Shown: piece by piece, positions 2,718-62,753 of the stretch
Layout: each line of letters begins with the position of its first letter
Position numbering within the stretch: position 1 is the first letter of the stretch
Source of the DNA: Leucoraja erinacea
Lineage: Eukaryota
Length of the DNA: 64,000 bases
Assembly: GCF_028641065.1 (NCBI RefSeq)
Contig: NC_073400.1
Location: forward strand, 5,084,001 to 5,148,000
Direction of reading: 5' to 3'
The notes under the pieces: model-generated
Told to the model about the DNA's origin: nothing
What the model saw: the letters and a program-made list of their open reading frames with translations, nothing else
The model's database searches: none
Position numbers and translations under genes: made by a program

Positions 2718-2853
2718 TCTTCTTCTTGGGTATGGCGTGCACAGCCTAACGTTGTAGGACAACTTGTTCTATTTGATCTTATTTGATTGTGCACACCGGG
2801 TTGATTGCATTTGTCGAAACAGGTTCCACATGAAGGTTGCAATCTCCCACCCC
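2718..2853 (-). mobile_element. Ribozyme-headed short retroposon, copy 1
   Basis: (GAA)n tail; TSD aaaactatgct (2707-2717) / aaaaccatgct (2855-2865). Confidence 0.85.
2803..2853 (-). ncRNA. Degenerate HDV-like ribozyme, copy 1 (P3'/P1' disrupted)
   Basis: Same motif, but GGUCCGCCCU is replaced by GGAACCU. Confidence 0.6.
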
Positions 2854-15821: not shown

Positions 15822-15962
15822 TTAAGCATTCTGCATCTCTTGGCCAATCCTGTAGCTCATGATCTTGTTCCAGTCGACTTTCGTGCGGGTTACTGGCAAG
15901 CTCCTGCGTAAGGCTTTGAAGGTGGTGTCAGACATGGCATTGTAATTTTCACAGATTGCAGT
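15822..15962 (-). CDS. CAPZA1: CAPZA exon 10, coding part (TAICENY...[32 protein letters not shown])
   Basis: 141 nt ending in TAA; ten exons sum to 861 nt = 286 aa; actin-binding residues K256/R260/R266/K268/W271 present. Confidence 0.97.
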
Positions 15963-16383
15963 CTGAAACAAAATACAACCATTAAAACTCACTGGAATAA
16001 CTTCAATATGAAAATACTTCTGAGGAAGGTGCAAGGAAAATAAAAACTTATTGAGTCCTTCAGAGCAACACTAACATTTTGGCAACATCCATTGCAATTG
16101 GATCTTCTCATTTTAATTTCTAAAGTAAAATTCTACCTGTTGCTTCCTGAACTTGCTCGCACTATAAACATTACAAACTCAATGTTCCTGAAAAGTCTCC
16201 TTCAGCCTTTATCATTCTCCAGGTGAGTTAAACAGATATTGTATCACGTGAGCTCCAATCATTTATGACAGAACTTGCAGCAGAGACCTCATTAACAGGC
16301 TCATTTCACATTCACAATGGATCAATTATTATTGAAACGCTTTTAAGTTTTTCAACAACCCACATACACTGGGGGCTACATAC

Positions 16384-16446
16384 CTGGTAATCACACTCAG
16401 CCGCTTCAATCAGTTTCACAAATTCCTTTGCAGTTTGGGTCTCGTT
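16384..16446 (-). CDS. CAPZA1: CAPZA exon 9 (NETQTAKEFVKLIEAAECDYQ)
   Basis: 63 nt, AG/GT flanks. Confidence 0.95.
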
Positions 16447-16833
16447 CTAAAGATGAAAGAACAAAGAAAAAGTCAGGAGTATTAATTCAGTTTGAACAGC
16501 CTAGCATCAAGCATAAATACACAGCTACTAGATTGCGCACATAACTTACATTGCAGTACTGACATCACACATCGACTTGGGAAATAGCATTATTTCAACT
16601 CCTGATTCATTATGCAAAATCCTGATCCCATTTATCCACCAGAATCACAATTACCGGTGCAGAGTCATCATCCACAACTTAGTCCACAAACCCAGCACCT
16701 ACCTGTTCAACTAGTTACTGCATAGTACAGGGCTTCTCAATCATAAATGGCACTGCATGGTGAAACTTAAACAAAATTGTTCTGATAGCAGTTATGCTTT
16801 TTCCCCCCAATGACAATTTTGGATGGTCATTAA

Positions 16834-17064
16834 ATAGACATAAAATGCTGGAGTAACTCAGCGGGACAGGCAGCATCTCTGGAGAGAAGTAATGGGTGAC
16901 GTTTCGCATCAAGACCGTTCTTTAGATTCCTTTGTCTCAAGAAGAGTCTTGACTCGAAACGTCACCCATTCCTTCTCTCCAGAGATGCTGCCAGTCCCGG
17001 TGAGTTACTCCAGCATTTTGCGTCCATCTTCGGTTTAAACCAGCATCTACAGTTCCTTCCTGCA
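16834..17064. repeat. Inverted pair of Penelope terminal repeats in CAPZA intron 8
   Basis: aaaatgctggagtaactcagcgggacaggcagcatctctggagagaag...reverse complement. Confidence 0.85.
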
Positions 17065-17218
17065 CACATGGTCAATAAATATTATTCTTTCCGGCAATGC
17101 CCACATCCCATGAAAGGATTGGGCAATGAAAGGAAACCTATTGAATCCCAATCAAAGCCAGTAACTTCTTTACATTGTTCTGAGGATCAGTATCTATTTA
17201 AAATCAATTTAGACTTAC

Positions 17219-17290
17219 TGAGATTTGCAAGGATTCTTGGATGTCCTTGTGGCTCATCAACTGAACATTGCCATCTTCATAATAATGAAC
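17219..17290 (-). CDS. CAPZA1: CAPZA exon 8 ([24 protein letters not shown])
   Basis: 72 nt, [10 protein letters not shown] capping-protein alpha signature. Confidence 0.97.
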
Positions 17291-17370
17291 CTTGAAAGAC
17301 ATGACAGGTTTAATATAGTTTGTTCTGTGTATAATGAAATTTGTACAATCATACAAGAAAGGAGGCAGAC

Positions 17371-17449
17371 CTGAATCTTCAGAACTCCAGTGAGCTGAAC
17401 TGATGGTGGGTTAATAGTGAATTTCCATTCTGATCTCCAACGTCCATTC
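17371..17449 (-). CDS. CAPZA1: CAPZA exon 7 ([26 protein letters not shown])
   Basis: 79 nt, NGRWRSEW signature; donor CAG|GTCTGC. Confidence 0.95.
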
Positions 17450-18985
17450 CTTTAAAAAGTGTTTTAAAAACAGGACATAATTTGCAACTAACAATATACT
17501 TGGAACAAACACTTATTTAGTCCAAATCAACACAATAAGATAAAGTTTATAAAGCTGCAGAAAATACAGTATGGGAGTAAACTAGCTAAAAATACAAAAA
17601 CAAACAGTATGAGTGCCTACTGGTATCTAAAAGGGCACATGGAGATGAGACTTGGAAATTAATCATGGGAAGTAGAGAAATAGCAGAGATTCTAATAAAA
17701 AGATTTTCAGCGGGCATTCTTGGTACAAACTTAAAAGTGTCCCAATAATAATGGATATTCAAAGTGCGATGAGGAGGAATTTAAACCAAATCTAAACAAA
17801 TACTATTGAGACACAAGGAACTGCAGATGTTGGAATCTCGAACACAACACAAAGTGCTGAAGGAACTCAGCAGGTCAGGCAAACATATAGTGAAAATGGA
17901 CAGGTGACAATTCGGGTTAGGACTCTAGATAAATTAATGTGGCTAAAGGCTAATGTCCATTGGATCTGATGACCTGCATCCTCGGGTCTGAAGGGAAGTG
18001 GTTGCCGAGATATAATGGTTGCAATCTGCCAACAGCTCCTGGATTTTGCATAGGTCCCAAAGAATTAGAATACCACAACGTTTAGTTCAGTTTATTACTG
18101 TCACATGTACAGTCTTTTCTTTGACTGAGTAGCATGCAATAAAAAACTTTTCACCGTACATGCAATGATACTGCTTGACTTCGCTTTGCAGCCAGTTGTG
18201 GTATTCAGGCCTTGCCACAATCGGCAGGTGTCCAAATGATTATGCTGGGACACAAGTTTGGATTCAAGGTAATACCACCATTCAGGAAAGAAGGAAGACA
18301 GAGAACAGGAAACTATAGGCCAGCTGGCCTAACATCTGTGGTTAGGAAATTTCTAGAATATATTATTGAGGTTATTTTGTCTTACAGCGTCAGAGACCCG
18401 GGTTTGATCCTGACTACGGGTGCAGTCTGTACAGAGTTTGTATGTTCTCCCTTGCCAGTTTTGACCCCGAGGGTTTTCTCTGGGTGCTCCAGTTTCCTCC
18501 CACACTCCAAAGATGTACAGGTTTGTAGGTTAATTGGCTTCTGTAAATTGTAAATCATCCCTAGTGTGTAGGATAGTGCTAGTGTATGGGGTGAGCGCTG
18601 GTCAGCACAGACACAGTGGGCCAAAGGGCCCGTTTTTACGCTGTATCTCTAAAGTCTAAAGATTATAACAGCATATTTAGAAATTATAGGACAATCAAGC
18701 AGAATCAACATGAATTTAGAAAAGAGAAGTGGAATTTGATAAATGTGCTTTTTATTATTTTATGATGTAACAAACAGTGAATAAGGGAAAACCAAGTGTT
18801 TGGATTTCCAGAAAGAATTATTTTAGCTGCTGCATAACTAGTAACTGCATAAGAGCACATGATGATGGGGGTAATGTATTCGCATTTACTCCTGTTTTTC
18901 ATGTTCTGAAGCAAACCCGAAACCTGATAGTTGTTCTATAACGTTTTTGCACAGACTGGCCTGCACCTTGTCCCTCCAAGTCCTG

Positions 18986-20262
18986 CAGTGGCCTCCACAA
19001 TGTTTGGGACAAAGACCCATCATTTATTTATTTGCCTCTGTACTCCACAATTTGAGATTTTTAATAGAAAAAGAATCATGTGTGGTTAAAGTGCACATTG
19101 TCAGATTTTATTAAACGGTATTTTTTATAGATTTTGGTTTCACCATGTAGAAATTACAGCTGTGTTTATACATAGTCCCCCCATTTCTGGGCACCATAAT
19201 GTTTGGGACACATGGCTTCACATGTGTTTGTAATTGCTCTTATTTGTTTAAATGCCTCCTTAATGCAGGTATAAGAGAGCTCTCAGCACCTAGTCTTTCC
19301 TCCAGTCATTCCATCACCTTTGGAAAGTTTTATTGCTGTTTATCAACATGAGGACCAAAGTTGTGCCAATGAAAGCCAAAGAAGCCATTATGAGACTGAG
19401 AAACACGAATAAAACTGTTAAGAGACATGGCCAAACCTTAGGCTTACCAAAATCAACTGTTTGGAACATCATGAACAAGAAAGAGCACTGGTGAGCTTAC
19501 TAATCGCAAAGCGCCTGTCAGGCCAAGGAAGACCTCCACAGCTGATGACAGAAGAATTCTCTCTATAACAATACAGAAAAATCCCCAAACACCTGTCCGA
19601 CAGATCAGAAACACTCTTCAGGAGTCACGTGTTGATGTGTCAATGACTACTGTCTGCGGAAGATTTCAAGAACAGAAATACAGAGGCTACAGTGCAAGAT
19701 GCAAACCACTGGTTAGCCGCAAAAATAGGATGACCAGGTTATAGTTTGCCAGGAAGTACTTAAAAGAGCAACCACAGTTCTGGAAAAAAAGCTCTTGTGG
19801 GCAGATGAGGCGAAGATTAACATATCAGAGTGATGGCAAGAGCAAAGTATGGAGGAGAGAAGGAACTGCCCAAGATCCAAAGCATACCACCTCATCTACA
19901 GAACACAGTGGTGGGGGTGTTATGGCCTCGGCATGTATGGCTGCTGAAGCTACTGGCTCACTTATCTTCATTGATGATACAACTGCTGATGTTAGAAACA
20001 TAATGGATTCAGAAGTGTATAGATACATCCTATCTGCTCAAGTTCAAACAAATGCCTCAAAATACATACACCGGCGGTTCATTCTACAGCAAGACAATAA
20101 TCCCAAACATACTACTAAAGCAACAAAGGAGTTCAAGCAGTCATTGCATGCAAAGGATATGCAACAGAATACTAAACATAACTACTTTCATTTACATGAC
20201 ATTGTTGTGTCCCAAACATTATGGTGCCCTGAAATGGAGGGACCATGTATAAACACTGCTGC
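18986..20262 (+). mobile_element. Tc1/mariner element (IR/DR type), degraded and internally deleted
   Basis: Left TIR CAGTGGCCTCCACAATGTTTGGGACA with inner repeat at ~19195-19210; transposase remnants HSGGGVMASACMAA and FILQQDNNPKHT; inner half of right TIR at ~20207-20262. Confidence 0.9.
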
Positions 20263-20961
20263 ATTGCCAGGAGGTGGTGGAGACTGCTACGATGGTGGTG
20301 TTTAAGAGACCTTTAGATAGATACATGGAAATTCAGGGAAAAGAGGGATATGGATCATGTGCAGGCAGATGAGATAATCTCGGCGAGGCATCATGTTCGA
20401 CACAAACATTGTGGACTAAAGGGTCTGTTCTGGTGCTGTACTGTTGTGTCCTCTGTTGATACTGGATCAGTGATAGGGCTAGCTAATCATAAAGCAAGTA
20501 TTCAAGAAGAGACCTCTCTCTGCAGAAGCAATCACAGTGGTTGGCAGCTTCAGATTCCTGAACTTTAACATCTCACATGACCTGACCTGGGCCCAGCACA
20601 TAGGTATAATCACAAAGAAGGCATGCCACAACCTCTAGTTTAAAAAGATTTGACACCTGTAGTAAGTATCCTCAAGTAACATGTCAATGAAGCAACTGTT
20701 CCAATAGAATTTAAATCCACGCTTTTGTTCATTGCCATAGTCTATGTGAGAGGCTGCTATAAAAAAATTGTCATTTGTACCTGTGCCTTATTGTACTTGT
20801 GCATAGAAAACAAGACAAGGTAAAGGGATCATTAGGAATGCTCTATACTGAATTGGAACATTTGCTCAATTATCATGTTACTTAACGCAGAGGCTGAAGT
20901 TCAGAGATTGGCATTAGACATTGGAACTTTATTTATTAACAGTTAAAAAAAAAAAACTTAC

Positions 20962-21041
20962 CAAAAATTATTTGGCTGAAACTGATGATTTTCGATGCAA
21001 GCTATAATAGTTTGCTGGCCATTAATTGTCTTACCATATAT
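20962..21041 (-). CDS. CAPZA1: CAPZA exon 6 (IYGKTINGQQTIIACIENHQFQPNNF)
   Basis: 80 nt, AG/GT flanks. Confidence 0.95.
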
Positions 21042-21253
21042 CTACAAAACAAAATAACAAGTCAGAAAAAAGACCATCAAGCTTCTGTGCAATAGCAATC
21101 ATCTTTTAATCAGTTTCTAGTGTTTGTGTGTGCACTGTGTACTGTGTGTGCATTGGCTGCCACTTTCATGGAGTCAGAGTTATACAGCAAGGAAACATGC
21201 CATTAATCCCAACTTGCCCATGTCAGGTTCCTTCTTGAGACTGATTGTATGTG

Positions 21254-21295
<42 letters not shown>

Positions 21296-21899
21296 GGAGA
21301 CTGGGACAGCGGCCTCCCTTCTCTCTGTCCTAGCTTTCTATCTCCTAATCCAAACAGTCTGGAGAAAGTCACGACCCAAAACGTCACCCATTCCTTCTCT
21401 CCAGAGATGATGCCTGACGCACTGAGATACTCCAGCACTTTGTGTTTATCTTTAGGATTACATTAGTGTCTGTATGCATAAATTGGCTGATGTGTTTCTT
21501 ATATTACAATGGTGACTGCTCTGCCTCACAGCGCCAGAGACCCAGGTTTGATCCTGACCTCAGGTGTTGTCTTTGTGGCATTTGCGCCTTCTTCCTGTGA
21601 GCACGTGGGTGTTCTCCAGATGTCCAGTTTTCCTCTCAAGCATGATTGTAGGTCAGTGTGGACTCAGTGTGCAGAAGGGCCTGTTTCCATCCCTAAACTA
21701 AACAGCAGTGAGGACTTTTTCCAAAATCAGCACGTTGGGTGGACTGCCTTCGCTTCTGTGATATATTTAGTGATTTTTACCATGAGAGTATAAATGTCAT
21801 CCTTGTTAAACATCTTGTCAATGGAAATGCCTGATGAAAGCAACCATTGATATCCTACTTAATTGCAAACATTGCCCACATTTATATTTGTTTTAATGG

Positions 21900-23540
21900 C
21901 CAGAGGATCTGGGGTGACAGAGGAAGGAAATCCACAATAGGCAGGAAATGGTGCTGGATAGACTGATGGGACTGAAGGCTGATAAATCCCCAGGGCCTGA
22001 TGGTCTGCATCCCAGGGTACTTAAGGAAGTGACTCTAGAAATTGTGGATGCATTGGTGATAATTTTCCAATGTTCTATAGACTCAGGATCAGTTCCTGGG
22101 GATTGGAGGGTAGCTAATGTTATCCCACTTTTTAAGAAAGGCGGGAGAGAGAGAAAACGGGGAATTATAGACCAGTTAGCCTGACATCGGTGGTGGGGAA
22201 GATGCTGGAGTCAATTATAAAAGATGAGATAGCCGCACATTTGGATAGCAGTAACAGGATCGGTCTGAGTCAGCATGGATTTACGAAGGGGAAATCTGGA
22301 ATTCTGGAATTTTTTGAAGATGTAACTAGGAAAATGGACAAGGGAGAGCCAGTGGATGTAGCATACCTGGACTTTCAGAAAGCATTTGATAAGGTCCCAC
22401 ATAGGAGATTAGTGGGCAAAATTAGGGCACATGGTATTGGGGATAGAGTGCTGACATGGATAGAGAAGTGGTTGGCAGACAGGAAACAAAGAGTAAGGAT
22501 TAACGGGTCCCTTTCAGAATGGCAGGCAGTGACTAGTGGGGTACCACAAGACTCGGTGCTGGGACCGCAGCTATTTACAATATACATCAATGACTTGGAT
22601 GAAGGGATTCAAAGTAACATTAACAAATTTGCAGATAACACAAAGCTGGGTGGCAGTGTGAACTGTGAGGAGGATGCTATGAGAATGCAGGGTGACTTGG
22701 ACAGGTTCAGGGAGTGGGCAGATGAAGTTTAATGTGGATAAATGTGAGGTTATCCACTTTGGTAGCAAAAACAGGAAGGCAGATTACTATCTAAATGGTG
22801 TCAAGTTGGGAAAAGGAGAAGTACAATGGAATCTGGGGGTCCTTGTACATCAGTCTATGAAAGTAAGCATGCAGGTACAGCAGGCAGTGAAGAAAGCAAA
22901 TGGCATGTTGGCCTTTATAACAAGAGGAATCAAATATAGGAGCATAGAGGTCCCTCTGCAGTTGTACAGAGCCCTAGTGAGACCACACCTGGAGTATTGT
23001 GTGCAGTTTCAGTCCCCTAATTTGAGGAAGGACATTCTTGCTATTGAGGGAGTACAGCGTAGGTTTACAAGGTTAATTCCCGGGATGGCGGGACTGTAAT
23101 ATGCTGAGAGAATGGAGCAGCTGGGCTTGTACACTCTGGAGTTTAGAAGGATGAGAGGGCATATCATTGAAACATAAGATTGTTCAGGGCTTGGACACGC
23201 TAGAGGCAGGAAACATGTTCCCGGTGTTGGGGGAGTCCAGAACCAGGGATAAGAACAGTTTAAGAATAAGGAGTAAGCCATTTAGAACGGAGGCGAGGAA
23301 ACACTTTTTTTCACAGAGAGTGGTGCGTCTGTGGAATTCTCTGCCTCAGTGGAGGCAGGTTCTCTGGATGCTTTCAAGAGAGAGCTAGATAGCGCTCTTA
23401 AAAATAGCGGAGTCAGAGGATATGGGGAGAAGGCAGGAATGGGGTAATTATTGGGGATGATCAGCCATGATCACATTGATTGGCGGTGCTGGCTCGAATG
23501 GCCAAATGGCCTGCTCCTGCACCAATTATCTATTGTCTAA
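21900..23540 (+). mobile_element. CR1 LINE, RT region to 3' end (young, frameshifted)
   Basis: KSPGPDGLHP, YLDFQKAFDKVPH, SGVPQDSVLGP, KFADNTKLGG. Confidence 0.95.
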
Positions 23541-23823
23541 TCCTTATTCTCCTTAGTTTCAACTTCACATGTTTTGATATTGAAAGAGTGTAAATTTTTC
23601 AATTGAGAGATTCGATATTGTCATGCCCATTCTTAATTTCATATGCATACATACAGCAGGTCAATGACTATTAGTAGGAAATCTACAGCAAGGTTTTGCC
23701 CCACATAAAGATAATCAATGCTATGACGTATTAACCCGCAGTCGTAAACTCTGCTTGAAACAAAGAGAGGTTTCCACCAAATGTTCAGTCACACAAATTG
23801 CGTTCTATATTCATAAACTTAAC

Positions 23824-24030
23824 TGTGCAGATGCCACAGGGATAGTGGTTTTTAATGTAGGCTCGCAGTGCGTTATCACAGGCACTCCGCCACGGTTCTA
23901 TCGCAGTCTCGCCTGTCGTGGGTTGAATATCACTGCTTTCTTTCCTCACATGATCAAATTTGAAGGAGACTTGGTTCTTTGGGTCTAGGAATCTTCCATT
24001 ACCCAAATCACCATGTTCTGTAATCAGGAC
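23824..24030 (-). CDS. CAPZA1: CAPZA exon 5 ([19 protein letters not shown]...HYPCGICT)
   Basis: 207 nt; overlaps ORF 23785..24006; donor ACA|GTTAAG. Confidence 0.95.
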
Positions 24031-33328: not shown

Positions 33329-33467
33329 TCTTCTTCTTGCGTACGGCATGCACAGCCTAAAGTTGTCGGACAACTTGTTCTATTTGATCTTATTTGATTG
33401 TGCACACCAGATGGATTGCATTCGTCGAAACAGGGCGGACCAGGTGAAGGTTGCAATCTCCCACCCC
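33329..33467 (-). mobile_element. Ribozyme-headed short retroposon, copy 2, inserted in a CR1 remnant
   Basis: (GAA)n tail; TSD aatactttgact (33317-33328) / aataccttgact (33468-33479). Confidence 0.9.
33414..33467 (-). ncRNA. HDV/CPEB3-like ribozyme fold, copy 2 (L3 G->C variant)
   Basis: GGGGUGG GA GAUUGCA ACC UUCACCU GGU CCGCCCU GU UUCG A CGAA UGCAAUC. Confidence 0.8.
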
Positions 33468-33921: not shown

Positions 33922-34067
33922 TGTACGTAAAATCTCTTGGGATTATCCTTAATATTGTTTGCCAGACCTATCTCCGGTCCCCCTTTTACCCTCCTGACTT
34001 CCTTTTTTACACCGGAGATAGGTCTGGCAAATAATATTAAGGATAATCCCAAGAGATTTTACGTACA
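33922..34067. repeat. 57-bp inverted repeat, 1 mismatch, 32-nt spacer
   Basis: 33922-33978 is the reverse complement of 34011-34067. Confidence 0.95.
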
Positions 34068-53603: not shown

Positions 53604-53713
53604 CTTCACCCCCGTCTTCACCGCCGGCCGCGCCGCATGCTGGGAGCGGCCGTAACATCGCCGCCCTGCCGGGCCCGGGTTGGAGCGGGCAGCGGCGCCA
53701 GGGCGGTGCTCAC

Positions 53714-53756
53714 CTTCTCGCCGTCCGACAGCTGCTCTTCCGCGCCAGTCCGCCAT
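53714..53756 (-). pseudogene. Duplicated CAPZA exon 1 with a 4-nt insertion (43 nt, frameshifted if spliced)
   Basis: Second copy of ATGGCGGAC...GAGAAG|GTGAG inside a tandem duplication (53527-53675 and 53676-53828). Confidence 0.85.
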
Positions 53757-53811
53757 CTTCACCCCCGTCTTCACCGCCGGCCGCGCCGCATGCTGGGAGC
53801 GGCCGCAACAT

Positions 53812-54172
53812 CGCCGCCCTGCCGGGCCCGGCCAGTACTGCAGCTCACAGGCGCCGCCCTGCCGGGCCCGGCCAGTACTGCAGCTCACAGGCGCCGCCCT
53901 GCCGGGCCCAGCCAGTACTGCAGCTCACAGGCGCCGCCCTGCCGGGCCCAGCCAGTACTGCAGCTCACAGGCGCCGCCCTGCCGGGCCCGGCCAGTACTG
54001 CAGCTCACAGGCGCCGCCCTGCCGGGCCCGGCCAGTACTGCAGCTCACAGGCGCCGCCCTGCCGGGCCCGGCCAGTACTGCAGCTCACAGGCGCCGCCCT
54101 GCCGGGCCCGGCCAGTACTACAGCCCCTCAGCGCCGCCCTGCCGGGCCCGGCCAGTACTGCAGTTCGCAGGC
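53812..54172. repeat. 40-bp minisatellite, ~9 copies (gccgggcccggccagtactgcagctcacaggcgccgccct)
   Basis: Exact 40-nt periodicity with few substitutions. Confidence 0.95.
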
Positions 54173-54529
54173 GAGAGAAACAATGAACTATGTAGGAAGG
54201 AACTGCAGATGCTGGTTTACACCAAAGATAGACAAAAATGCTGGAATAACTCAGCGCAATAGGCAGCATCTCTGGAGAGGAAAGGGTGATGTTTCTGGGT
54301 CGAGACCATGAGAGCAAATCTCGTTATAAAGTCAATTGTATCATTCGGGGAAAGGGGGTTAGGAGCTAGAGTTTCAACTCGCAATAACAAAGTAACCTTT
54401 CTTGCAGGATTCAAAATACATTTATTTTCAACACTGTGGAGTTTTGTTAGTGCATTTCCCAGGCTGTCCAGCAGCCCCGCCTCTCAAAGTACCCATCCAG
54501 CTATATCCCTTCCTCAGGCTTCATATTTC

Positions 54530-55035
54530 ACTCCTTTTCTTAGCTGACACTCTTTTGTATCCTTTTCATTTCTCGCCATGGACTCCCAGTCAGCTGAACT
54601 ACCCCTCCTTTCTCCCTGCCTCAAGTCCTTACCTTTCACGCCACCAACACATCAAGTCTCCGACATTTCTGCCATCAATGCAATCCCACCATCAGCCATA
54701 TTTTCCCATCCCTATCTACCCCTTTCTGCCTTCCAGAGACTGCTCCCTCCACAACTCCTTGGTTGACTCACCCTTCCCCACCCCTGCAATCACATGATAT
54801 GGAACACCTGTTCCGATATCCTCTCCCTCACATCCATTCAAGGACCCCAGCAGTTCTTCCAGGTGAGACAGAGGTTTACGTGCATCTCCTTTAACCTCAT
54901 CTACAACATTCGGTGCTCCTGTTGTGGCGTCCTTTACGTTGGGGAGACCAAAAGTAGACTAGGCAACGTTTCTGTTGTACACTTGCACTCAGTCCACTAA
55001 GACCTGCTAGATCTCCCAGTTGCTAAACATTTTAC
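54530..55035 (+). mobile_element. Penelope-like element, GIY-YIG endonuclease remnant
   Basis: FTCISFNLIYNIRCSCCGVLYVGETKSRLG. Confidence 0.85.
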
Positions 55036-55634
55036 TGCAAATTCAATAAAGGCCATGGCCCAAAAAAACAAAGAGAATAGCAATCCTTGCCGAGTGCCCT
55101 AAAGAATGTACAAGAATGCATGGAGGTTTGAAACTAAGAATAAAGGAAGAATGTTTCTTTCAGATTAAAGAAGGAAGTTTACTTTCTTTTCTACTTCTAC
55201 AATGTCCAAAGTCGATTTCTGTTTTGGTGTGGATCAGTAGCTTAGTAAGCAGCACTGGCACTTCTAGGTCAGAAGCTTGTAAGCTTGAGTCTTGCACTCT
55301 AAACTTGACCCCGTTAGGCATGAGAGAGTGCCGCACTTTTGGTGTGATGACTTTTCGATGTTGTTAATCCCTCAGCTGAGTGCTGCTGAATCTATGGCTC
55401 TGTCTAGAATCTACGACTACATGTTTTTCCCCAAAGTCCTGGCCAGTATTTATCCTTCAACTAAGATGACAGAAAAACCTTGCCTTGGCCTTTATCAAGG
55501 TGCCAAAGTGGGACCTGTATGCTGCATTACTAATTATACAACAGTAACTACATTTTAATGTGATGTGATGTGTAAAAGTCATGAAAGGTGCCAAATTTAA
55601 ACATTTATCTGCAACAGAGATGTAATGCTGAGGC

Positions 55635-55930
55635 TCTATAAGGCGCTGGTCAGGCTGCATTTGGAGTATTGTGAGCAAATTTGGGCCCCATAGCCGAGGA
55701 AAGGTGTGCTGGCTCTGGAGAGGGTCCAGAGGAGGTTTACAAGGATGATTCCAGGAATGAGTGGGTTAGCATATGATGAATGTTTGACGGCACTGGGACT
55801 ACACTTGCTGGAGTTTAGAAGGTTGAGGGGGAACCTCATTGAAACTTGTAGAATAATGAAAGGCATAGTTAGAGTGAATGTGGAAAGGATGTTTCCACTG
55901 GTGGGAGAGTCTAGGACCAGAGGTCATAGC
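55635..55930 (+). mobile_element. CR1 LINE fragment
   Basis: LALERVQRRFTRMIPGM. Confidence 0.85.
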
Positions 55931-56304
55931 CCCAATCTCTTTCTTGTATTTTGCAATTACATTTCAATAATAATAATAATAATACGAGACACAAAGTGCT
56001 GGAGTAACTCAGTGTAAAGCAGCATCTCTGGAGCCCTGTATGTGTGACTGTTTGGGTTGTACTCTTCCGCATAGACCCTTCTTCAATAATAAAACGTGGG
56101 TTCAATGACCAAGGAAAAAAACGTAACCTGATGAGATGAAACACAAAAGTGAAGCTGGTGTACTTTCCTTTTACACAGAATTCAACACAACCAGGCCCAC
56201 TATCGGTTTCTCAAATCCAGCTCTGACAATGTTTAAATAATTCCAATGGTGCTCCCATTCCACCCCCTAGTGGCTGCACGATGCAGTGTATGCACAGTTA
56301 AGAC

Positions 56305-56837
56305 CAGGAGTCACCAATCTTTTTCTGCATAGGGGTCAGGACCCATGTCTGTGAGTGGATGGCGGGCCACATATATAAATATTTATATAATTTGAGCAAT
56401 GATATGTCGACTGAATATTGCAGTTACTTTGAGACATTGGTATTGAAACTACCCTCACCCCTCTCTGTCCAAAACTTAATGCAGACCCTTTGTTACCCTC
56501 ACTTCCCCCTCCCTGTTCACTCTCTCTCCCCCCTCTCTCCTCCCCTTCCTGCCCCCTCCCCCTCTCCTCCACCTCCTCCCCCTCCCCACATCAGTAGAAC
56601 CGCGCCCACCGCTCCAACTAACCCTTTGCCCAGTTTGTGGGATTATATCAGTTCCGATTTGTTTTGTATCAGCAAACAGGATTGCTAGGAGCATTAAAGC
56701 AAGTCTTTATGTCGCTGGCCAACAGTATTAAACAGTCTAAAGAAGTCTAGATGATGGGAAAAAAATACGCCTGCGGGCCGGATGATTTCAGGTTACGGGA
56801 TGGATCCGTCTCGTAGGCCGCAGTTTGCCGACCCCTG
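56305..56837. mobile_element. Non-autonomous hAT (Charlie-type) MITE
   Basis: Termini CAGGAGTC...GACCCCTG; perfect 8-bp TSD GTTAAGAC (56297-56304 and 56838-56845). Confidence 0.9.
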
Positions 56838-58750
56838 GTTAAGACATTAGTTCAATGATTCTTTATTATCACGTACCAAGGAACAGTGAAATTATTTTAT
56901 TGCATATAAAAGTAAATAATTACCATACATAACTACAACCCCACATTAAATGCAAAATGTAAAGAAATAGCCCACTGAGGCCATATGCAAGAGGCGCCTG
57001 TTCATGGCGCCATTTTTAAAGTGCAAGTTTAATATATGCAGAAGATCTACCTTCCACCACAACCCTCTCTCTACAAGGCAGATCTGAATCCATTGTGGTG
57101 ACTGGGATGATGCCAGGTTGACAATGACCACACCGACACTCGCGGTTGGGTGAACTTGTGTAATATGGTTTATTTATAGTGACAACAAATTCAATTCTTG
57201 GGGCACTTGTCCCTTGTCTACAGCACGTGAGGAGGTACTGGCCATCTTGGGCTTGTCTCACTAATTCAGTCTTGGTCTCGAAGGAGGAGGCACTGTCGAT
57301 CTCAGACTTACTCCTGCAGTTTTCCTCGAGAGGAGATGCTGGTGGTCGCAGGCTTCCCCGTGGCAGCTCAACTTTGGGCTTGAAGAAGGAAGTGCGGCAA
57401 TCTCAGGCTTACCATGCATTTCACCCTTGCCTTGAGAGGCAGCACTGGGCTTCTCAATCTTAACCCATGGCTCAGTCTTTGCCTCTGTTTATGGTTGCAG
57501 TCCCTCATTGTCTGTGGGCAGGTAAGAGACACCGGCGGTCTCAGGCATGCCCTGACCACTCAGTTTTAGCCTCAGTGCAGGTGCTGGCTGTCTAGGGCTT
57601 CTCCCTGCAGCTCAGTCCTGACCACTAAACGGTGGTGCTGGTGGACTTGGGTTTGTCCCAGCGGCTCAGTCTTCCTCCCGACCTGCAACCGGGGGGCACA
57701 GCAAGTAGGGGGGCATTTAAAATGTTAAGAGGAAGAAAGCTAGAACAATCTTATAATGAGAGCCAGATAATTCATCATTAGTTAGCAGTATATTGGAGCA
57801 AGCCTAAACTTTATTCTCCAGCAGACCTGTTTATTTCAGTCAGTATTACTTCAAATTTGATTATTCTACAAGGATTATTGTAGTGCCAGAGCAGAGCTCT
57901 ATCCAGAATTCATGTTGGATTATCCTATCATGCGCTTCATCATCTTCACTTTAAATTATTTCAGCAATAATATATTTTCTTGCAAGTCTACCCCAAAAGA
58001 TATTCAACTAAAACAGTTCATCAGTCCTTAATCTCTCAACCTCTGGAAAGTAAAAAAAAATGGTGTTAAAAATTTCAAGAGCAAAGGACTTCAGCAAAGA
58101 ATGAAAGAACGTTGTAGGAGCTATGACTCCGTAGCTGGAGTAATTCAGCCTGTTGTATAGTGACGTTCACAATTAATAAAGTCATTCCTTCCATCACAAA
58201 GTCAAAAGTGGGAATGTTTATAGTTGTTTGCAGTGAAGCCGATCTATCCCAGCTTATAAAGGGAGGCAAGAGAGGAGATCGGGGAGGCCTTGATGAGGAT
58301 CAAAGCGTTGTAGTCAAAGGATGTTTGTTACTTTTAGCAATTAATTAATACTTCCATTAAAATAAAATCACATTTTGGCAGTTTCATATCAGGAATACCA
58401 CATTTTTAAAGGTTATGTCCCTCTGACATGACATGACTAAACAGGTAAACTCGTGTACTTTACACCGTATTCACCTGCTGACTTATTATCCAGGATTCAC
58501 ACACTTGTGAGTAATTGAGTATTCCTGCCATCATGCAGAAGATACAGAAGCTTGGAAGCACGCGCCACAAGATTCAGAAACATCTTCTTCTCCTCTGCTA
58601 TCAGGCTTCTGAACAGTCCTTCCAAAAGCTAGCGAACTGTCGGATTCATTGTGGATATTGGACTTTGGCTCTGGAATTGATGCACTAAAATGCTATATTC
58701 TGCACTCTTATTTTTTCCTTTGCTCGTTCTATTGTACTTGAGTTTGTCTT

Positions 58751-58804
58751 GGGGTGGGAGATTGCAACCTTCACGTGGTCTGCCCTGTTTCGACAAATGC
58801 AATC
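58751..58804 (+). ncRNA. Minimal HDV/CPEB3-like self-cleaving ribozyme fold, intact core
   Basis: P1 GGGGUGG/CUGCCCU, P2 GAUUGCA/UGCAAUC, P3 ACC/GGU, L3 UUCACGU, GU-UUCG-A, J4/2 CAAA (putative catalytic C58794). Confidence 0.85.
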
Positions 58805-58886
58805 AACCTGGTGTGCTCAATCAAATAAGATCAAGTAGAACAAGTTGTCCTACAACTTTAGGCTGTGCACGCCATACGCAAAAATA
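58751..58886 (+). mobile_element. Ribozyme-headed short retroposon, copy 3
   Basis: TSD agtttgtctt (58741-58750) / agttgtctt (58887-58895); eroded tail. Confidence 0.85.
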
Positions 58887-58955
58887 AGTTGTCTTGATTA
58901 TATCTATGTATAGAATTGTCTGATTTGATTGGATAGTATGCAATAAAACACATTT

Positions 58956-60216
58956 TTTGCATAAGTATTCAGACCCTTTACTCAGTACTTTGTTGAGGCA
59001 CCTTTGGCAGCGATTACAGCCTCAAGTCTTCTTGGGGATGACGTTACAAACTTGGCACACCTGTATTTGGGTAATTTCTCCCATTCTTCTCTGCAGATCC
59101 TCAAGCTCTAGGTTGGATGGGGAGCGTCGATGCACAGCTATTTTCAGGTTCCTCCAGAGATATTCGATCGGGTTCAAGTCCGGGCTCTGGCTGGGCCACT
59201 CAAGGACATTCACAGGCTTGTCACAAAGCTACTGCGTTGTCTTGGCTGTGTGCTTAGGGTCGTTGTCCTGTTGGAAGGCGAACCTCTGCCCCAGTCTGAG
59301 GTCCAGAACGCTCTGGAGCAGGTTTTCATCAAGGATCTCTCTGTACTTTGCTCCGTTCATCTTTCCCTCGATCTTGACTAGTCTCCCAGTTCCTACTGCT
59401 GAAAAACATCCCCACAGCAGGATGCTGCCACCACCATGCTTCACTGTAGGTTTGGTATTGGCCAGAGGATGAGCAGTGCCTGGTTTTCTCCAGTTGTGAT
59501 GCTTGACATTCAGGACAAAGAGTTCAATCTTGGTTTAATCAGCCCAGGGAATCTTGTTTCTCATGGTCTGAGAGTGCTTTAGGTGCCTTTTGGCAAACTC
59601 CAAGCGGGCTGTCATGTGCCTTTACTGAGGAGTGTCTTCCGTCTGGCCACTCTACCATAAAGGCCTGATTGGCGGAGTGCTGCAGATACAGTTGTCCTTC
59701 TGGAAGGTTTTCCCATCTCCACAGAGGAACTCTGGAGCTCTGTCAGAGTGACCATCAGGTTCTTGGTCACCTCCCTGATCAAGGCCCTCTCCCCCGATTA
59801 CTCAGTTTGGCCGGGCGGCCAGCTCTACGAAGAAACCTGGTGGTTTCAAAGTTCTTCCATTTAAGAATGACGGTGGCCAATATGCTCTTCGGGACCTGCA
59901 ATGCTGCGGAAATTGTTTCATACCATTCCCCAGATCTGTCTCAACACAATCCTGTTTTGGAGGTCTACGGACAATTTTGCTCCATTTTCAGTGTCATCGC
60001 AAAGGGTCTGAATACTCAAGTATATGTGATATTTCAGTTATTTATTTTTAATTACTTTGCAAACATTTCTAAACACCTGTTTTTGCTTCTTCATTCTGTG
60101 GTATTGTGCGTAGAAAGAAGATTAAAAAAAAAGAATTTAATCCATTTTAAAATAAGGCTGTAACGTAACAAAATGTGGAAAGGGTAAAGGGGTCTGAATA
60201 CTTTCTGAATGCACTG
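58956..60216 (-). mobile_element. Tc1-like element (second family), degraded
   Basis: [38 protein letters not shown] motifs; terminus ...gaatgcactg followed by TA; repeated gtattcagaccc motifs. Confidence 0.92.
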
Positions 60217-60634
60217 TACCTGTCCAGGTGTCTTTTAAATGTCATACCTGCACCTCCTCTACCACTTCCTTCAGCAGTTTTGTTCCCCATCTATGCAGCA
60301 CCTTTTGTGTGAAAACAGGGCCACTCGGATTACTTTTAAATCTTTCTCCTCTTGTCCTAATCCAATGCCCTCCAGATTTTCACTCCTACCCTGGGAAAAA
60401 ATATGGTAGTTATTCACCTTATCGATGTTCCTCATGATTTCATATACCTCCCCTTCATCCTCTCTAGCTCCAGGGAAAAAAGAATCCCACCAATCTAGTA
60501 ACTCAAAATTTCCACCTCCAGTAACATCCTCATGAATATTTTTTGCACCATTTCCATTTTAATGACATCCTGCCTACTACAAGGTGATCAGATTCTACAT
60601 AGTACTCCAAGTGTGGCAAAACCACGTTTTGTGT

Positions 60635-61210
60635 AAAGAGCAACAGAGATGGTTGAAAGGGTCAAGAGCTTCAAATTCCTGGGCGTGCACATCTCTGAAG
60701 ATCTTTCCTGGTCCGAGAACACTAATGCAATTATCAAGAAAGCTCATCAGCGCCTCTACTTCCTGAGAAGATTACGGAGAGTCAGTTTGTCAAGGAGGAC
60801 TCTAACTTCTACAGGCGCACAGTAGAGAGCATGCTGACCGGTTGCATCGTGGCTTGGTTCGGCAACTTGAGCGCCCTGGAAGTGAAAAGACTACAAAAAG
60901 TAGTAAATACTGCCCAGTCCATCATCGGCTCTGACCTTCCTTCCATCGAGGGGATTTATCGCAGTCACTGCCTCAAAAAAGCTGGCAGTATCATCAAAGA
61001 CCCACACCACCCTGGCCACACATTCAACTTCCTGTTATTTTCAGGTAGAAGGTACAGGAGCCTGAAGACTGCAACAACCAGGTTCAGGAATAACTACTTC
61101 CCCACAGCCATCAGGCTATTAAACCTGGCTCGGACAAAACTTTGATTATTAATAACCAATTATGTTATTTGCACTTTATCATTTTATTTATTCATGTGTG
61201 TATATATTTA
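60635..61210 (+). mobile_element. Rex1/Babar-type LINE 3' fragment
   Basis: FKFLGVHISEDLSW, ESMLTGCIVAWFGN, KDPHHPGH, RFRNNYFPTAIRLLN. Confidence 0.85.
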
Positions 61211-61215
61211 TATTA

Positions 61216-61715
61216 CAGTATCTCTAATGTAGTGACAGTCTGTACGATGTCTCAAGGCTTTATCTCTCAATAGTCACTTTAATTGATGACCGTGGATCGG
61301 CAGGTAATCTATATGCACCCACGAGCTCCCCACGAGACATTCAATACCGTCAAAAGATGAATATTCCAGAAACAGACTTGATTAATAGTTTCTTTATCGA
61401 AGTACAAAGCAATAAAATGATTCATCAAAGCTTCTTCTTGTATGAGTGTGTTTCAATCATACTCATGCTTGTGCATGATCGAAAACTATGTATCTCTCCC
61501 CCGATCTTCATCAAACTAAACTAAACTAAACTAAACTAAACTAAACTAAACTAAACTGCTTGGGAGCCTGTGCCAAAATCCTAGCCACAAACCACGCCCC
61601 AGATTATGTGAAAATCCCACCCACATAATTGCAGGCAGATAAAAATTTAAAGGTAACTAGTTATAATTATAATATACTGATAAGCTAAATGGCTACTACA
61701 TAACGGAGGGCACTG
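61216..61715. mobile_element. Probable Tc1/mariner-type MITE containing a (CTAAA)n microsatellite
   Basis: TA|CAGT...ACTG|TA with imperfect TIRs (cagtatctctaatgtagt vs cagtgccctccgttatgtagt). Confidence 0.5.
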
Positions 61716-61939
61716 TAAATGAGTATGTAGAGTTGTAGAGAGCTGGCCACCGTCTGGATCGGGCACCTTTCCACACCCAGATACATCTTTTAACCATTTC
61801 CAGTGTTTAATGTTGTTGGGTGAATATCAGTTAGAGAAGGCAGACTCGAGGTTTGAAAACGATATCTGTTGAAACGTAGCACCGTTTGGGCATCTTCACT
61901 CTGACTCTATGGGCATCTTCATTAAGATATATTAAAGCA

Positions 61940-62520
61940 GAGATACTGCCTGTCCCGCTAAGTTACAGCAGCATTTAGTGTCCGTCCACATTCCAGCTGT
62001 CAAAGAGTGTAAGTGAAATGTGTAAGTGAAATGTAGGAAGTAACTGCAAGATGCTGGTTCACTCCGAAGACGGACACAAAATGCTGGAGTAAACACTTTA
62101 ACTCCCACTCCCATTCCCACACTGACCGTTCTATCCTGGGCCTCATCCGTTGTCAGAATGAGGCCCAGCACAAATTGGAGGAGCAGCACCTCATATTTCG
62201 CTTGGGCAGCTTACACCCCAGCGATATGAACAATGACTTCTACAACTTCCCTGTCTCTCCATCCCTCCCCCTTCCTCCTTCTTCGACCAGTCTGACTGTC
62301 CCTCAGTTTACATTTTATCCTTGTTTGCTTCAATGTCACCTTTTCCGAGCTAACTAACAATGATCTATTCTACATTTTGCACCCCATTTGATGTCTCGTT
62401 TTCACACCTTACCCTTCCATATCTCTGCGCCTACCTACCTGTCCCCTGACTCTCAGTCTGAAGAAGGGTCTGGGCCCGACACGACCCCATTGCTTCCTTC
62501 TCTCCACAGATGCTGCGTGA
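61940..62520 (+). mobile_element. Penelope-like element 3' end with short inverted segment, abutting the ST7L exon
   Basis: EEQHLIFRLGSLHPSDMNNDF; ctgaagaagggtc at 62458. Confidence 0.8.
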
Positions 62521-62599
62521 CTCCAACATGCTGTGTCTCCCGCTGCCCGGTGGAGGACTCCTCCTGTATCCCACAATCCTCCAGGCGTGCCGGACAAAC

Positions 62600-62753
62600 A
62601 TGGCGGAGGGGGGCCCGGCGGGGTTCGTTGAGCGGCTGAAGCGATGTGTCAGTTGGTCGTGGACCTACCTGTGGGCGCTCTGGTTCGTCCTGGTGCTGGG
62701 CCTCCTCTACATCCTGCGGGCACCGCTCAAGCTGCAGGAGAACCTCAGCGCAG
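62600..62753 (+). CDS. ST7L: ST7-family (suppression of tumorigenicity 7-like) first coding exon; gene continues beyond the window
   Basis: [51 protein letters not shown], phase-1 donor G|GTAAG; homologous to the ST7/ST7L N-terminal transmembrane segment; ST7L rather than ST7 inferred from divergent orientation to CAPZA. Confidence 0.88.

What the first reader, a model, noticed from the sequence alone, without database searches (positions are those of the whole stretch)
58751..58804. Minimal 54-nt HDV/CPEB3-like ribozyme forming the exact 5' end of a short retroposon
Seen in sequence: GGGGUGG-GA-GAUUGCA-ACC-UUCACGU-GGU-CUGCCCU-GU-UUCG-A-CAAA-UGCAAUC. It folds into the HDV nested double pseudoknot: P1 58751-57/58780-86 (7 pairs, G1-U wobble at the predicted cleavage site), P2 58760-66/58798-804 (7 Watson-Crick pairs), P3 ACC/GGU, and J4/2 starting with the putative catalytic C58794. 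Established: L3 UUCACGU and the following GU match the mammalian CPEB3 ribozyme (single C-G P1.1); HDV-like ribozymes cleave 5' of G1 and process the 5' ends of R2, RTE and L1Tc retroelements. Here P4 is reduced to a UUCG loop. Inference: G1 is the first base after the TSD in all three copies, so self-cleavage probably generates the retroposed RNA's 5' end, with no Pol III promoter needed. I do not recognise this as a described chondrichthyan family, but I cannot check novelty without a search.
Basis: partly seen in the sequence, partly recalled or inferred. Interest (0 to 1): 0.92.

Follow-up and report, generated by a model that had tools for sequence, protein, structure and literature searches.

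The report
Minimal ribozyme heads a tiny retroposon
A roughly 130-letter jumping element, present in over ten thousand copies in this vertebrate genome, begins with a stripped-down hepatitis-delta-type self-cutting RNA fold that probably cuts the element out of longer transcripts in place of the usual promoter, although the cutting itself has not been shown.

Summary
Window 58751-58804 has every pairing and core base of an HDV/CPEB3-type nested pseudoknot, with P4 shrunk to 5 nt. It heads a 129-nt retroposon with an (AAG)n tail, ~11-nt target duplications and at least 12,010 genomic matches. G1, the predicted cut site, is the 5' end: 63 of 81 duplications end next to it, and 26 of 28 copies fished by the 3' half start within 5 nt of it. 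Two RTE LINE families and two related heads in this genome carry the same scaffold with a ~94-nt P4 and a different but still paired P1 and P1.1. That is family-level covariation and points to an RTE origin. The clearly amplified variants are structure-neutral. Not shown: cleavage, expression, or the partner LINE (none shares this head or 3' end). Most copies have decayed, this copy has a weakened P1, and Rfam scores fall below threshold. Ribozyme-headed non-autonomous retroposons are known, and so are P4-less HDV-like ribozymes, about 99% of them in phages. Nine literature searches did not turn up the combination; Repbase/Dfam could not be checked. New variant of a known kind.

The parts
58744..58750 (+). 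left target-site duplication (7 nt exact; 9-10 nt allowing one gap)
58751..58804 (+). 54-nt P4-less HDV/CPEB3-type ribozyme fold; predicted cut 5' of G58751
58751..58757 (+). P1 5' strand (pairs with 58780-58786; G1.U36 wobble; G6.U31 in this copy, G-C in the family)
58760..58766 (+). P2 5' strand (pairs with 58798-58804)
58767..58779 (+). P3 (3 bp) and 7-nt L3 with U20, C22, G25
58780..58788 (+). P1 3' strand and J1/4 (G37 pairs with C22 = P1.1)
58789..58793 (+). 5-nt L4 in place of the ~94-nt P4 region of RTE heads
58794..58797 (+). J4/2 with putative catalytic C44 (58794); the next base varies by subfamily (A/G/T)
58805..58879 (+). 3' domain of unknown origin: 10-bp stem (58810-19/58864-73) enclosing an A-rich linker and a 7-bp hairpin (58842-48/58852-58); candidate site for recognition by the LINE protein
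   Evidence: fold z = -2.99 for a near-consensus copy; no significant match to three RTE-type 3' ends
58880..58888 (+). degenerate (AAG)n tail
58889..58895 (+). right target-site duplication
33329..33467 (-). second window copy; G25C in L3; 12-nt duplication (1 mismatch) ending at G1
2719..2853 (-). third window copy; net 3-nt deletion in the P3/P1 3' strand; one extra T before G1

Best explanation
This is a non-autonomous retroposon whose head is a working, P4-less HDV-type ribozyme, homologous to the 5' heads of RTE-clade LINEs. Source copies are transcribed passively inside longer host transcripts (inferred). The head folds and cuts 5' of G1, releasing an uncapped RNA that starts at G1 (inferred from fold and boundary). 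The 3' stem-loop and (AAG)n tail are taken up by an RTE endonuclease/reverse transcriptase, which primes at a nick, runs to G1, sometimes adds one untemplated base and leaves a ~11-nt duplication (insertion anatomy shown, partner inferred). The likeliest partner is an RTE with the same (AAG)n tail: family RTE-A of this genome (about 0.5) or an extinct or undetected RTE (about 0.4). Inserted copies then decay neutrally; only source copies are under selection for the fold.
For: Complete fold, with 0 descriptor hits in 14.4 Mb of random sequence. 5' boundary at G1: 63 of 81 duplications of 8 nt or more end at G1-1 and 13 one base earlier (8 with an extra T); none found in 50 of 131; control 0 of 131. 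26 of 28 new loci fished by the 3' half start within 5 nt of G1, 2 are truncated, none is extended. Upstream identity is about 0.25 from -10 to -2. Loose ends pile up before G1 in 4 of 4 other runs laid (36, 75, 1, 199 contigs; agreement 0.36-0.38 in the three with many). Four long-P4 heads share the P3-L3 register and the GA-C-N-A-A junction. P1 pairs 7/7 within the short element, RTE-A, RTE-B and head C (6/7 in head D, 2 copies) but 1-2/7 when crossed with the short element; P1.1 is C-G here and G-C there; one clean P2 change U-A to C-G in RTE-A. RTE-A/B carry EN/RT/DUF6451, and Repbase RTE heads in the supplement of PMC5786205 show the same layout. Subfamily consensuses differ in the head only at J1/2 position 8 and at position 45. 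G32A (U.G to U-A) is in 35 of the first 100 of 5,241 matches, against 6-16 for the other CpG changes (hand count). No excess of G before G1 (23 of 131, p = 0.39), so no sign of a copied cap. RTE-A ends in (AAG)n.
Against: No cleavage assay and no usable RNA data. A sharp 5' end is also what a Pol III or internal Pol II start would give. Only 1 of 25 full-length copies fished by the 3' half fits the descriptor (49 of 131 in the head-biased set), and paired sites are no less mutated than free ones in those 25 (35/740 vs 2/99). For this copy the nested minimum-energy fold is an alternative pairing, and with 30 nt of flank P1/P2/P3 each fall below 0.1 probability (pseudoknots not modelled). No LINE with this head or 3' end was found, and the 3' domain does not align significantly to the RTE-A, RTE-B or head-C ends (104, 211, 415 of 1000 shuffles as good). 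The LINE heads begin with C1, and RTE-A has an A.A mismatch in P3, so their own activity is uncertain (C1 ribozymes are active in trypanosomatids, PMC4035085 passages). 5 of 21 T45/A32 copies carry C24U in L3, possibly a small amplified core variant.
Confidence: 0.74

Rival explanations
1. A Pol III-transcribed SINE. The head descends from an RTE ribozyme but is a relic or secondary, and G1 is the Pol III start.
For: G start; no run of four T in the consensus; an A-box-like stretch at 5-15 and a B-box-like stretch at 51-59 lie at tRNA-like spacing (box motifs recalled).
Against: The A box has 3 mismatches, against 0-1 in 7 of 11 control heads of a tRNA-type SINE from the same loci; 347 of 2000 shuffles do as well. 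No tRNA call. The B-like stretch has 2 mismatches in two of three subfamily consensuses. An active ribozyme and Pol III are not exclusive, but a relic fold should not keep every core base across subfamilies.
Confidence: 0.12
2. The head is an internal Pol II promoter or a protein-binding/protective structure (as Pr77 of L1Tc is both promoter and ribozyme). The pseudoknot is kept for RT binding or RNA stability, and cleavage is slow or dispensable.
For: Dual promoter/ribozyme heads are described (PMC3383444, listing and abstract start). Bipartite LINEs are thought to be Pol II-transcribed (PMC5786205). The RTE heads here have sharp 5' ends despite C1 and an imperfect P3.
Against: The short element has the canonical G1.U, U20/G25, C22-G37 and C44; C44U is not amplified (6 of 100, 5 in CpG context); no extra-G cap signature.
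Confidence: 0.11
3. The fold is a chance pattern in an ordinary repeat.
For: Rfam scores below gathering; the nested fold energy of the 54 nt is no better than shuffles (z 0.97); my descriptor was written after seeing the sequence.
Against: Cross-family compensatory P1, P1.1 and P2; the predicted cut site coincides with the element boundary; 0 hits in 14.4 Mb.
Confidence: 0.03

Closest known systems
Bipartite ORF-less non-autonomous LINEs of the RTE clade (RTE-N2_Lch, MAR4_MD, RTESINE2, Bov-A; Kojima 2018, PMC5786205, parts 1-4 of 5 read, supplement searched by six motifs)
   Same: Non-coding, LINE-type 5' head, microsatellite tail; the paper says such elements keep the extreme 5' end and cites predicted RTE ribozymes. 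Head C of this genome looks like a classical example.
   Different: Not a plain internal deletion of any LINE found here: P1 is strand-swapped, P4 is gone, the start is G1 not C1, and the 3' domain matches none of three RTE-type ends tested. At ~135 nt it is shorter than the examples listed (RTE-N1_ATr 195, RTE-N2_Lch 286).
R2 SIDEs and R2/R1 hybrid SIDEs (PMC3414825, passages); NARTc, RIME and SIDER of trypanosomatids (PMC4035085, passages)
   Same: Non-autonomous retroposons whose 5' end is an HDV-like ribozyme with shown self-cleavage; hybrid SIDEs join a ribozyme to the 3' end of another LINE.
   Different: Those keep P4. R2 SIDEs are confined to rDNA and are longer (529 bp for R2Dwi_SIDE). 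This element is dispersed, in over 12,000 copies in a vertebrate.
Minimal HDV-like ribozymes: drz-Mtgn and theta ribozymes (PMC10879173, passages and section 7; Riccitelli 2014 not held)
   Same: P4 replaced by a short loop, short J1/2, catalytic C first in J4/2, G1 at a processing boundary.
   Different: Nearly 99% were in Caudoviricetes phages, often beside tRNAs; their eukaryote set was human, mouse and protists. Here the context is an animal retroposon. Exact 20-mers gave 0 hits in viral and metagenome contigs.
Mammalian CPEB3 ribozyme (Rfam RF00622; PMC4836649 and PMC5984629, passages)
   Same: Same L3, J1/4 and (G45 subfamily) J4/2 letters, G1.U wobble, single G-C P1.1, and the same U20/C22/A23/G25 numbering.
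   Different: CPEB3 has a P4 hairpin and is a single-copy intronic element; P2, P3 and part of P1 differ; the Rfam score is 11.9 against a cut-off of 35. Common descent is not shown.

Membership tests
HDV-like ribozymes | Nested double pseudoknot P1, P1.1, P2, P3 in HDV order | tested here: met
HDV-like ribozymes | Core bases: pair at position 1, U20 and G25 in L3, catalytic C first in J4/2 | tested here: met
   G1.U36, U20, G25, C44 in this copy and in all subfamily consensuses
HDV-like ribozymes | Pairing supported by covariation | tested here: met
   across five families P1 7/7 (6/7 in head D) vs 1-2/7 crossed with the short element, P1.1 swap; within the short family almost no two-sided changes
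HDV-like ribozymes | Mg2+-dependent self-cleavage 5' of position 1, lost with C-to-U | not testable with these tools
   needs an in vitro assay
Rfam RF00622 / RF02682 | Score at or above gathering | tested here: not met
   11.9 vs 35 and 12.6 vs 44 bits
Minimal (P4-less) HDV-like ribozymes | P4 absent, short L4 | tested here: met
   5 nt between J1/4 and C44, against 93-95 in RTE heads
Theta ribozymes | Phage genome, cleavage site next to a tRNA | tested here: not met
   no tRNA in the window; 0 viral hits; flanks are target duplications
Non-LTR retroposon inserted by target-primed reverse transcription | Variable-length target duplications, short-repeat 3' tail, dispersed copies | tested here: met
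   81 of 131 with duplications of 8-17 nt, control 0 of 131; at least two AAG units in 94 of 131; 12,010 matches
Bipartite non-autonomous RTE LINE | 5' part homologous to an RTE 5' end | tested here: met
   shared P2-P3-L3 core and junction with RTE-A/B heads
Bipartite non-autonomous RTE LINE | 3' part homologous to an RTE 3' end | tested here: inconclusive
   only the (AAG)n tail is shared with RTE-A; no significant alignment to three ends; no LINE among 14 hits for the terminal motif; other RTE families were not covered
tRNA-derived (Pol III) SINE | tRNA-like head with A and B boxes | tested here: not met
   no ARAGORN or Rfam tRNA call; A box 3 mismatches; box match reached by 347 of 2000 shuffles
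tRNA-derived (Pol III) SINE | Transcription by Pol III | not testable with these tools
   needs 5'-end chemistry or ChIP

The most novel reading that the evidence does not exclude
A true 'ribozyme-headed SINE': a ~130-nt mobile unit made of a P4-less CPEB3-type ribozyme plus a stem-loop tail, no longer a deletion product of any resident LINE, that replaced the Pol III promoter by self-cleavage and seeded hundreds to thousands of potentially active cut sites through a vertebrate genome. It would be the first eukaryotic home of a natural minimal HDV-like ribozyme in the papers I could read, and a living model for how a CPEB3-type ribozyme lands in an intron.
Probability: 0.4. Interest if true: 0.8.

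Novelty: new variant of a known kind. Interest (0 to 1): 0.62.

Why it matters
Natural P4-less HDV-like ribozymes were reported almost only from gut phages, with unclear roles outside tRNA processing (PMC10879173). This would give one a eukaryotic job and show how small a retroposon can get when cleavage replaces a promoter. It bears on Kojima's open question of why only ribozyme-bearing LINE clades spawn bipartite elements. Over 12,000 copies make a natural mutational series and allow a genome-wide test of whether host genes purge sense-strand ribozymes from introns. The CPEB3-identical core makes the retroelement-origin idea for the mammalian ribozyme (recalled, not sourced here) easier to test.

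Tried and rejected
Partner LINE searches found none. Same head plus the long-P4 motif: 1 hit, a broken short copy. Head not followed by the short loop: 37 hits (control 16), none a LINE head by inspection of the matched letters. CPEB3-type L3/J1/4 plus long-P4 motif: 2 hits, control 2. Terminal 3' motif with different upstream: 14 hits, 9 of them fetched and 5 examined in full; the two that shared upstream letters were short copies interrupted by one DNA element. DUF6451 search: 144 matches among 150 scored of 717 candidates, 40 fetched, giving only RTE-A and RTE-B. P4-less heads with another L3: 110 matches (control 94), the 100 listed being mutated short copies, long-P4 heads or chance. Expression: no RNA holder listed among 24 runs; all 4 runs laid were contigs, so starts and levels cannot be read. 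Exact 20-mers in viral and metagenome contigs: 0. Rfam on four long-P4 head loci: no ribozyme family, so a recalled likeness of their P4 to twister variants is untested. A recalled likeness of drz-Spur-3 to CPEB3 was dropped after seeing its primers. A NOP56 host gene suggested by a weak SNORD110 match (24.4 vs 64 bits) was dropped: no such exons were recognised, and the flanking genes are CAPZA and ST7-family. In one search the pair indices for the inner 3' hairpin were off by one and those rows were not used; one search has the right ones. No earlier scan findings by sequence or in this genome. Papers not held: Ruminski 2011, Webb 2009, Webb and Luptak 2011, Jimenez 2015, Riccitelli 2014; their tables and supplements could list this family.

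Full report
Observation. All seven P1 pairs (G1.U36 first), seven Watson-Crick P2 pairs, three P3 pairs, a 7-nt L3, a single C22-G37 P1.1, a 5-nt loop where P4 would be, and C44 (58794) opening J4/2 are present. U20, C22, A23 and G25 carry the same numbers as in CPEB3, where G25.U20 positions the catalytic metal (PMC4836649, passages). L3 and J1/4 equal the CPEB3 letters in the Rfam consensus and in published primers (PMC5984629, passages); J4/2 does so in the G45 subfamily. A descriptor I wrote with this element in view hit only 58751 in the window and 0 times in 14.4 Mb of Markov sequence. Rfam lays its F. prausnitzii HDV model end to end on these 54 bases, but at 12.6 bits against 44, and CPEB3 at 11.9 against 35. 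The nested fold energy is no better than shuffles, as expected when pseudoknots are not modelled.

The element. The fold heads a 129-nt body, a degenerate (AAG)n tail (58880-88) and a 7-nt duplication (58744-50/58889-95). The genome holds 5,874 exact matches to a 20-nt head word (control 0) and 12,010 matches within two mismatches to a 22-nt 3' word (control 2). Among 131 near-full-length copies, chosen for length and biased by my queries, 81 have a duplication of 8-17 nt (median 11). Of these, 63 end at the base before G1, 13 one base earlier (8 with an extra T) and 5 further off; 50 copies have none; the control gave 0 of 131 (the search did not extend into the element). The 30 best loci fished with the 3' half alone (of 217 candidates) included 2 already held. 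Of the other 28, 26 start within 5 nt of G1 (2 of these internally broken), 2 are truncated, and none extends upstream. Upstream identity between copies is about 0.25 from -10 to -2, and 3 of 8,515 pairs share 14 or more of 20 bases, one being a local duplicate. In 4 of 24 listed runs, from four organism labels, loose ends pile up before G1 with unrelated flanks. The 3' domain folds into a 10-bp stem around a 7-bp hairpin (z -2.99).

Comparative evidence. A DUF6451 search led to two autonomous families, RTE-A and RTE-B, with endonuclease, RT and DUF6451. Relatives of RTE-B are ~1,000-residue single ORFs, and Repbase RTE heads in the supplement of PMC5786205 have the same layout. Both families start sharply with the same scaffold as the short element, as do two further heads. 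P3 and the L3 register are kept, the junction reads GA-C-N-A-A, and 93-95 nt separate J1/4 from the C, against 5 here (22 of 24, 20 of 25, 4 of 4 and 2 of 2 loci parsed). P1 is G-rich on the 5' strand here and C-rich there; each pairs 7/7 with its own 3' strand (6/7 for head D) and 1-2/7 when crossed with the short element. P1.1 is C-G here and G-C there. P2 differs but stays complementary, with one clean U-A to C-G change in RTE-A. This is in effect one deep contrast plus variation among related RTE heads, not five independent tests. Within the family, three subfamily consensuses differ in the head only at J1/2 position 8 and at position 45, the base after the catalytic C. In the first 100 of 5,241 matches, G32A, which turns U.G into U-A, occurs 35 times, while C24T, G25A, C31T, C41T, G42A and C44T occur 11, 7, 13, 7, 16 and 6 times (hand count).

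Against. Individual copies are not constrained: 1 of 25 copies fished by the 3' half fits the descriptor, and paired sites mutate no less than free ones. That is expected of dead insertions but gives no support. This copy's C31U costs 2.9 kcal/mol in P1 and favours an alternative nested fold, more so with its flank. The other two window copies are broken. No LINE with this head or this 3' end was found in four searches, and the 3' domain aligns no better than shuffles to three RTE-type ends; only the (AAG)n tail is shared with RTE-A. The LINE heads start with C1 and RTE-A has an imperfect P3, though trypanosomatid ribozymes cut before C1 (PMC4035085, passages). Five of 21 T45/A32 copies carry C24U. 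A Pol III reading is weak but not excluded: A box 3 mismatches, a B-like stretch with 1 mismatch at tRNA-like spacing, 347 of 2000 shuffles as good, and control SINE heads better on the A box in 9 of 11 (box motifs recalled).

Mechanism. Shown: anatomy, copy number, the boundary at G1, duplications, and homology to RTE heads with compensatory pairing. Inferred: passive transcription inside host RNAs, cleavage before G1, uptake by an RTE protein through the 3' stem-loop and tail, and run-off at an uncapped 5' end. The occasional extra T and the lack of extra G (23 of 131) fit the last step. Confidence 0.74; Pol III with a relic fold 0.12; internal promoter or binding role 0.11; chance 0.03.

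Comparison. It works like R2 SIDEs and the NARTc/SIDER elements, whose HDV-like heads were shown to cleave (PMC3414825; PMC4035085; review PMC6765202; all passages), and like bipartite RTE elements (PMC5786205, parts 1-4 of 5). It is not demonstrably a bipartite RTE, because the 3' test is inconclusive. It shares the missing P4 with drz-Mtgn and theta ribozymes, nearly 99% of which were in phages (PMC10879173, passages and section 7), but is not a theta ribozyme. Passages of PMC7761336, PMC8501958 and PMC4908430 gave background only. Nine full-text searches, judged from listings and the papers opened, showed no description of this family or of a P4-less ribozyme in a vertebrate retroposon; one search listed 30 of 218. 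Five key papers from the Luptak group were not held, and Repbase and Dfam could not be searched, so the family may already be named as a repeat. Unchecked notes of this scan report ribozyme-headed non-autonomous elements in other genomes, which fits a recurring kind and lends no support of its own.

Verdict. A real, well-supported candidate ribozyme defining the 5' end of an abundant ~130-nt retroposon; a new variant of a known kind; interest 0.62. One cheap cleavage assay on near-consensus copies would decide it.

Noticed in passing
L084/L127-L151 (RTE-A), L085/L102-L126 (RTE-B), L246/L249-L251 (head C), L247/L248 (head D): Four families with an HDV-like scaffold that starts at C1 and has a 93-95-nt P4 region; RTE-A has an A.A mismatch in P3. 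No Rfam ribozyme hit on four such loci. The P4 region recalls twister variants described for RTE elements (recalled, untested).
   Followed up: partly
L246, L249 (about 290-800): Head C appears to sit on ~460-520-nt non-coding elements with a shared 3' end, like classical bipartite RTE-N elements.
   Followed up: partly
L085:3599-4381: The RTE-B RT region is 74% identical to a snail protein, 71% to a sea-slug protein and 65-67% to teleost proteins, which suggests horizontal transfer among aquatic animals; no tree was built.
   Followed up: no
L192, L193: Two copies of the short element are interrupted at the same palindromic site of the 3' stem by the same inverted-repeat DNA element, with a ~9-nt duplication in L193.
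   Followed up: partly
window 33329-33467 (-): This copy lies in sense orientation between CAPZA exons at 15837-24030 and a probable first exon near 53.6 kb (recognised from memory, no Pfam hit), and has G25C in the core. One case only.
   Followed up: partly
window 53700-62650: The finding lies between divergent genes: CAPZA (- strand) and an ST7-family first exon at 62651-62752 (+). It is inserted in the end of an older LINE-like fragment (recalled likeness) and followed by a DDE transposase remnant at about 58950-60200 (DDE_3 hit).
   Followed up: partly
131 copies, base before G1: T in 66 of 131 against 31% in the flanks (p = 2e-6); part is an untemplated base (8 of 13), the rest suggests a target preference.
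   Followed up: partly
window 55339-55407 (+): Weak SNORD110-like match (24.4 bits, cut-off 64) with no host gene recognised.
   Followed up: no
L194; run X1: A copy with an inverted 5' part; two contigs of run X1 show nearly the same junction letters, possibly a shared orthologous insertion.
   Followed up: no
window 33922-34067: Long near-perfect hairpin that draws a sub-threshold miRNA model hit; probably a small inverted-repeat element.
   Followed up: no
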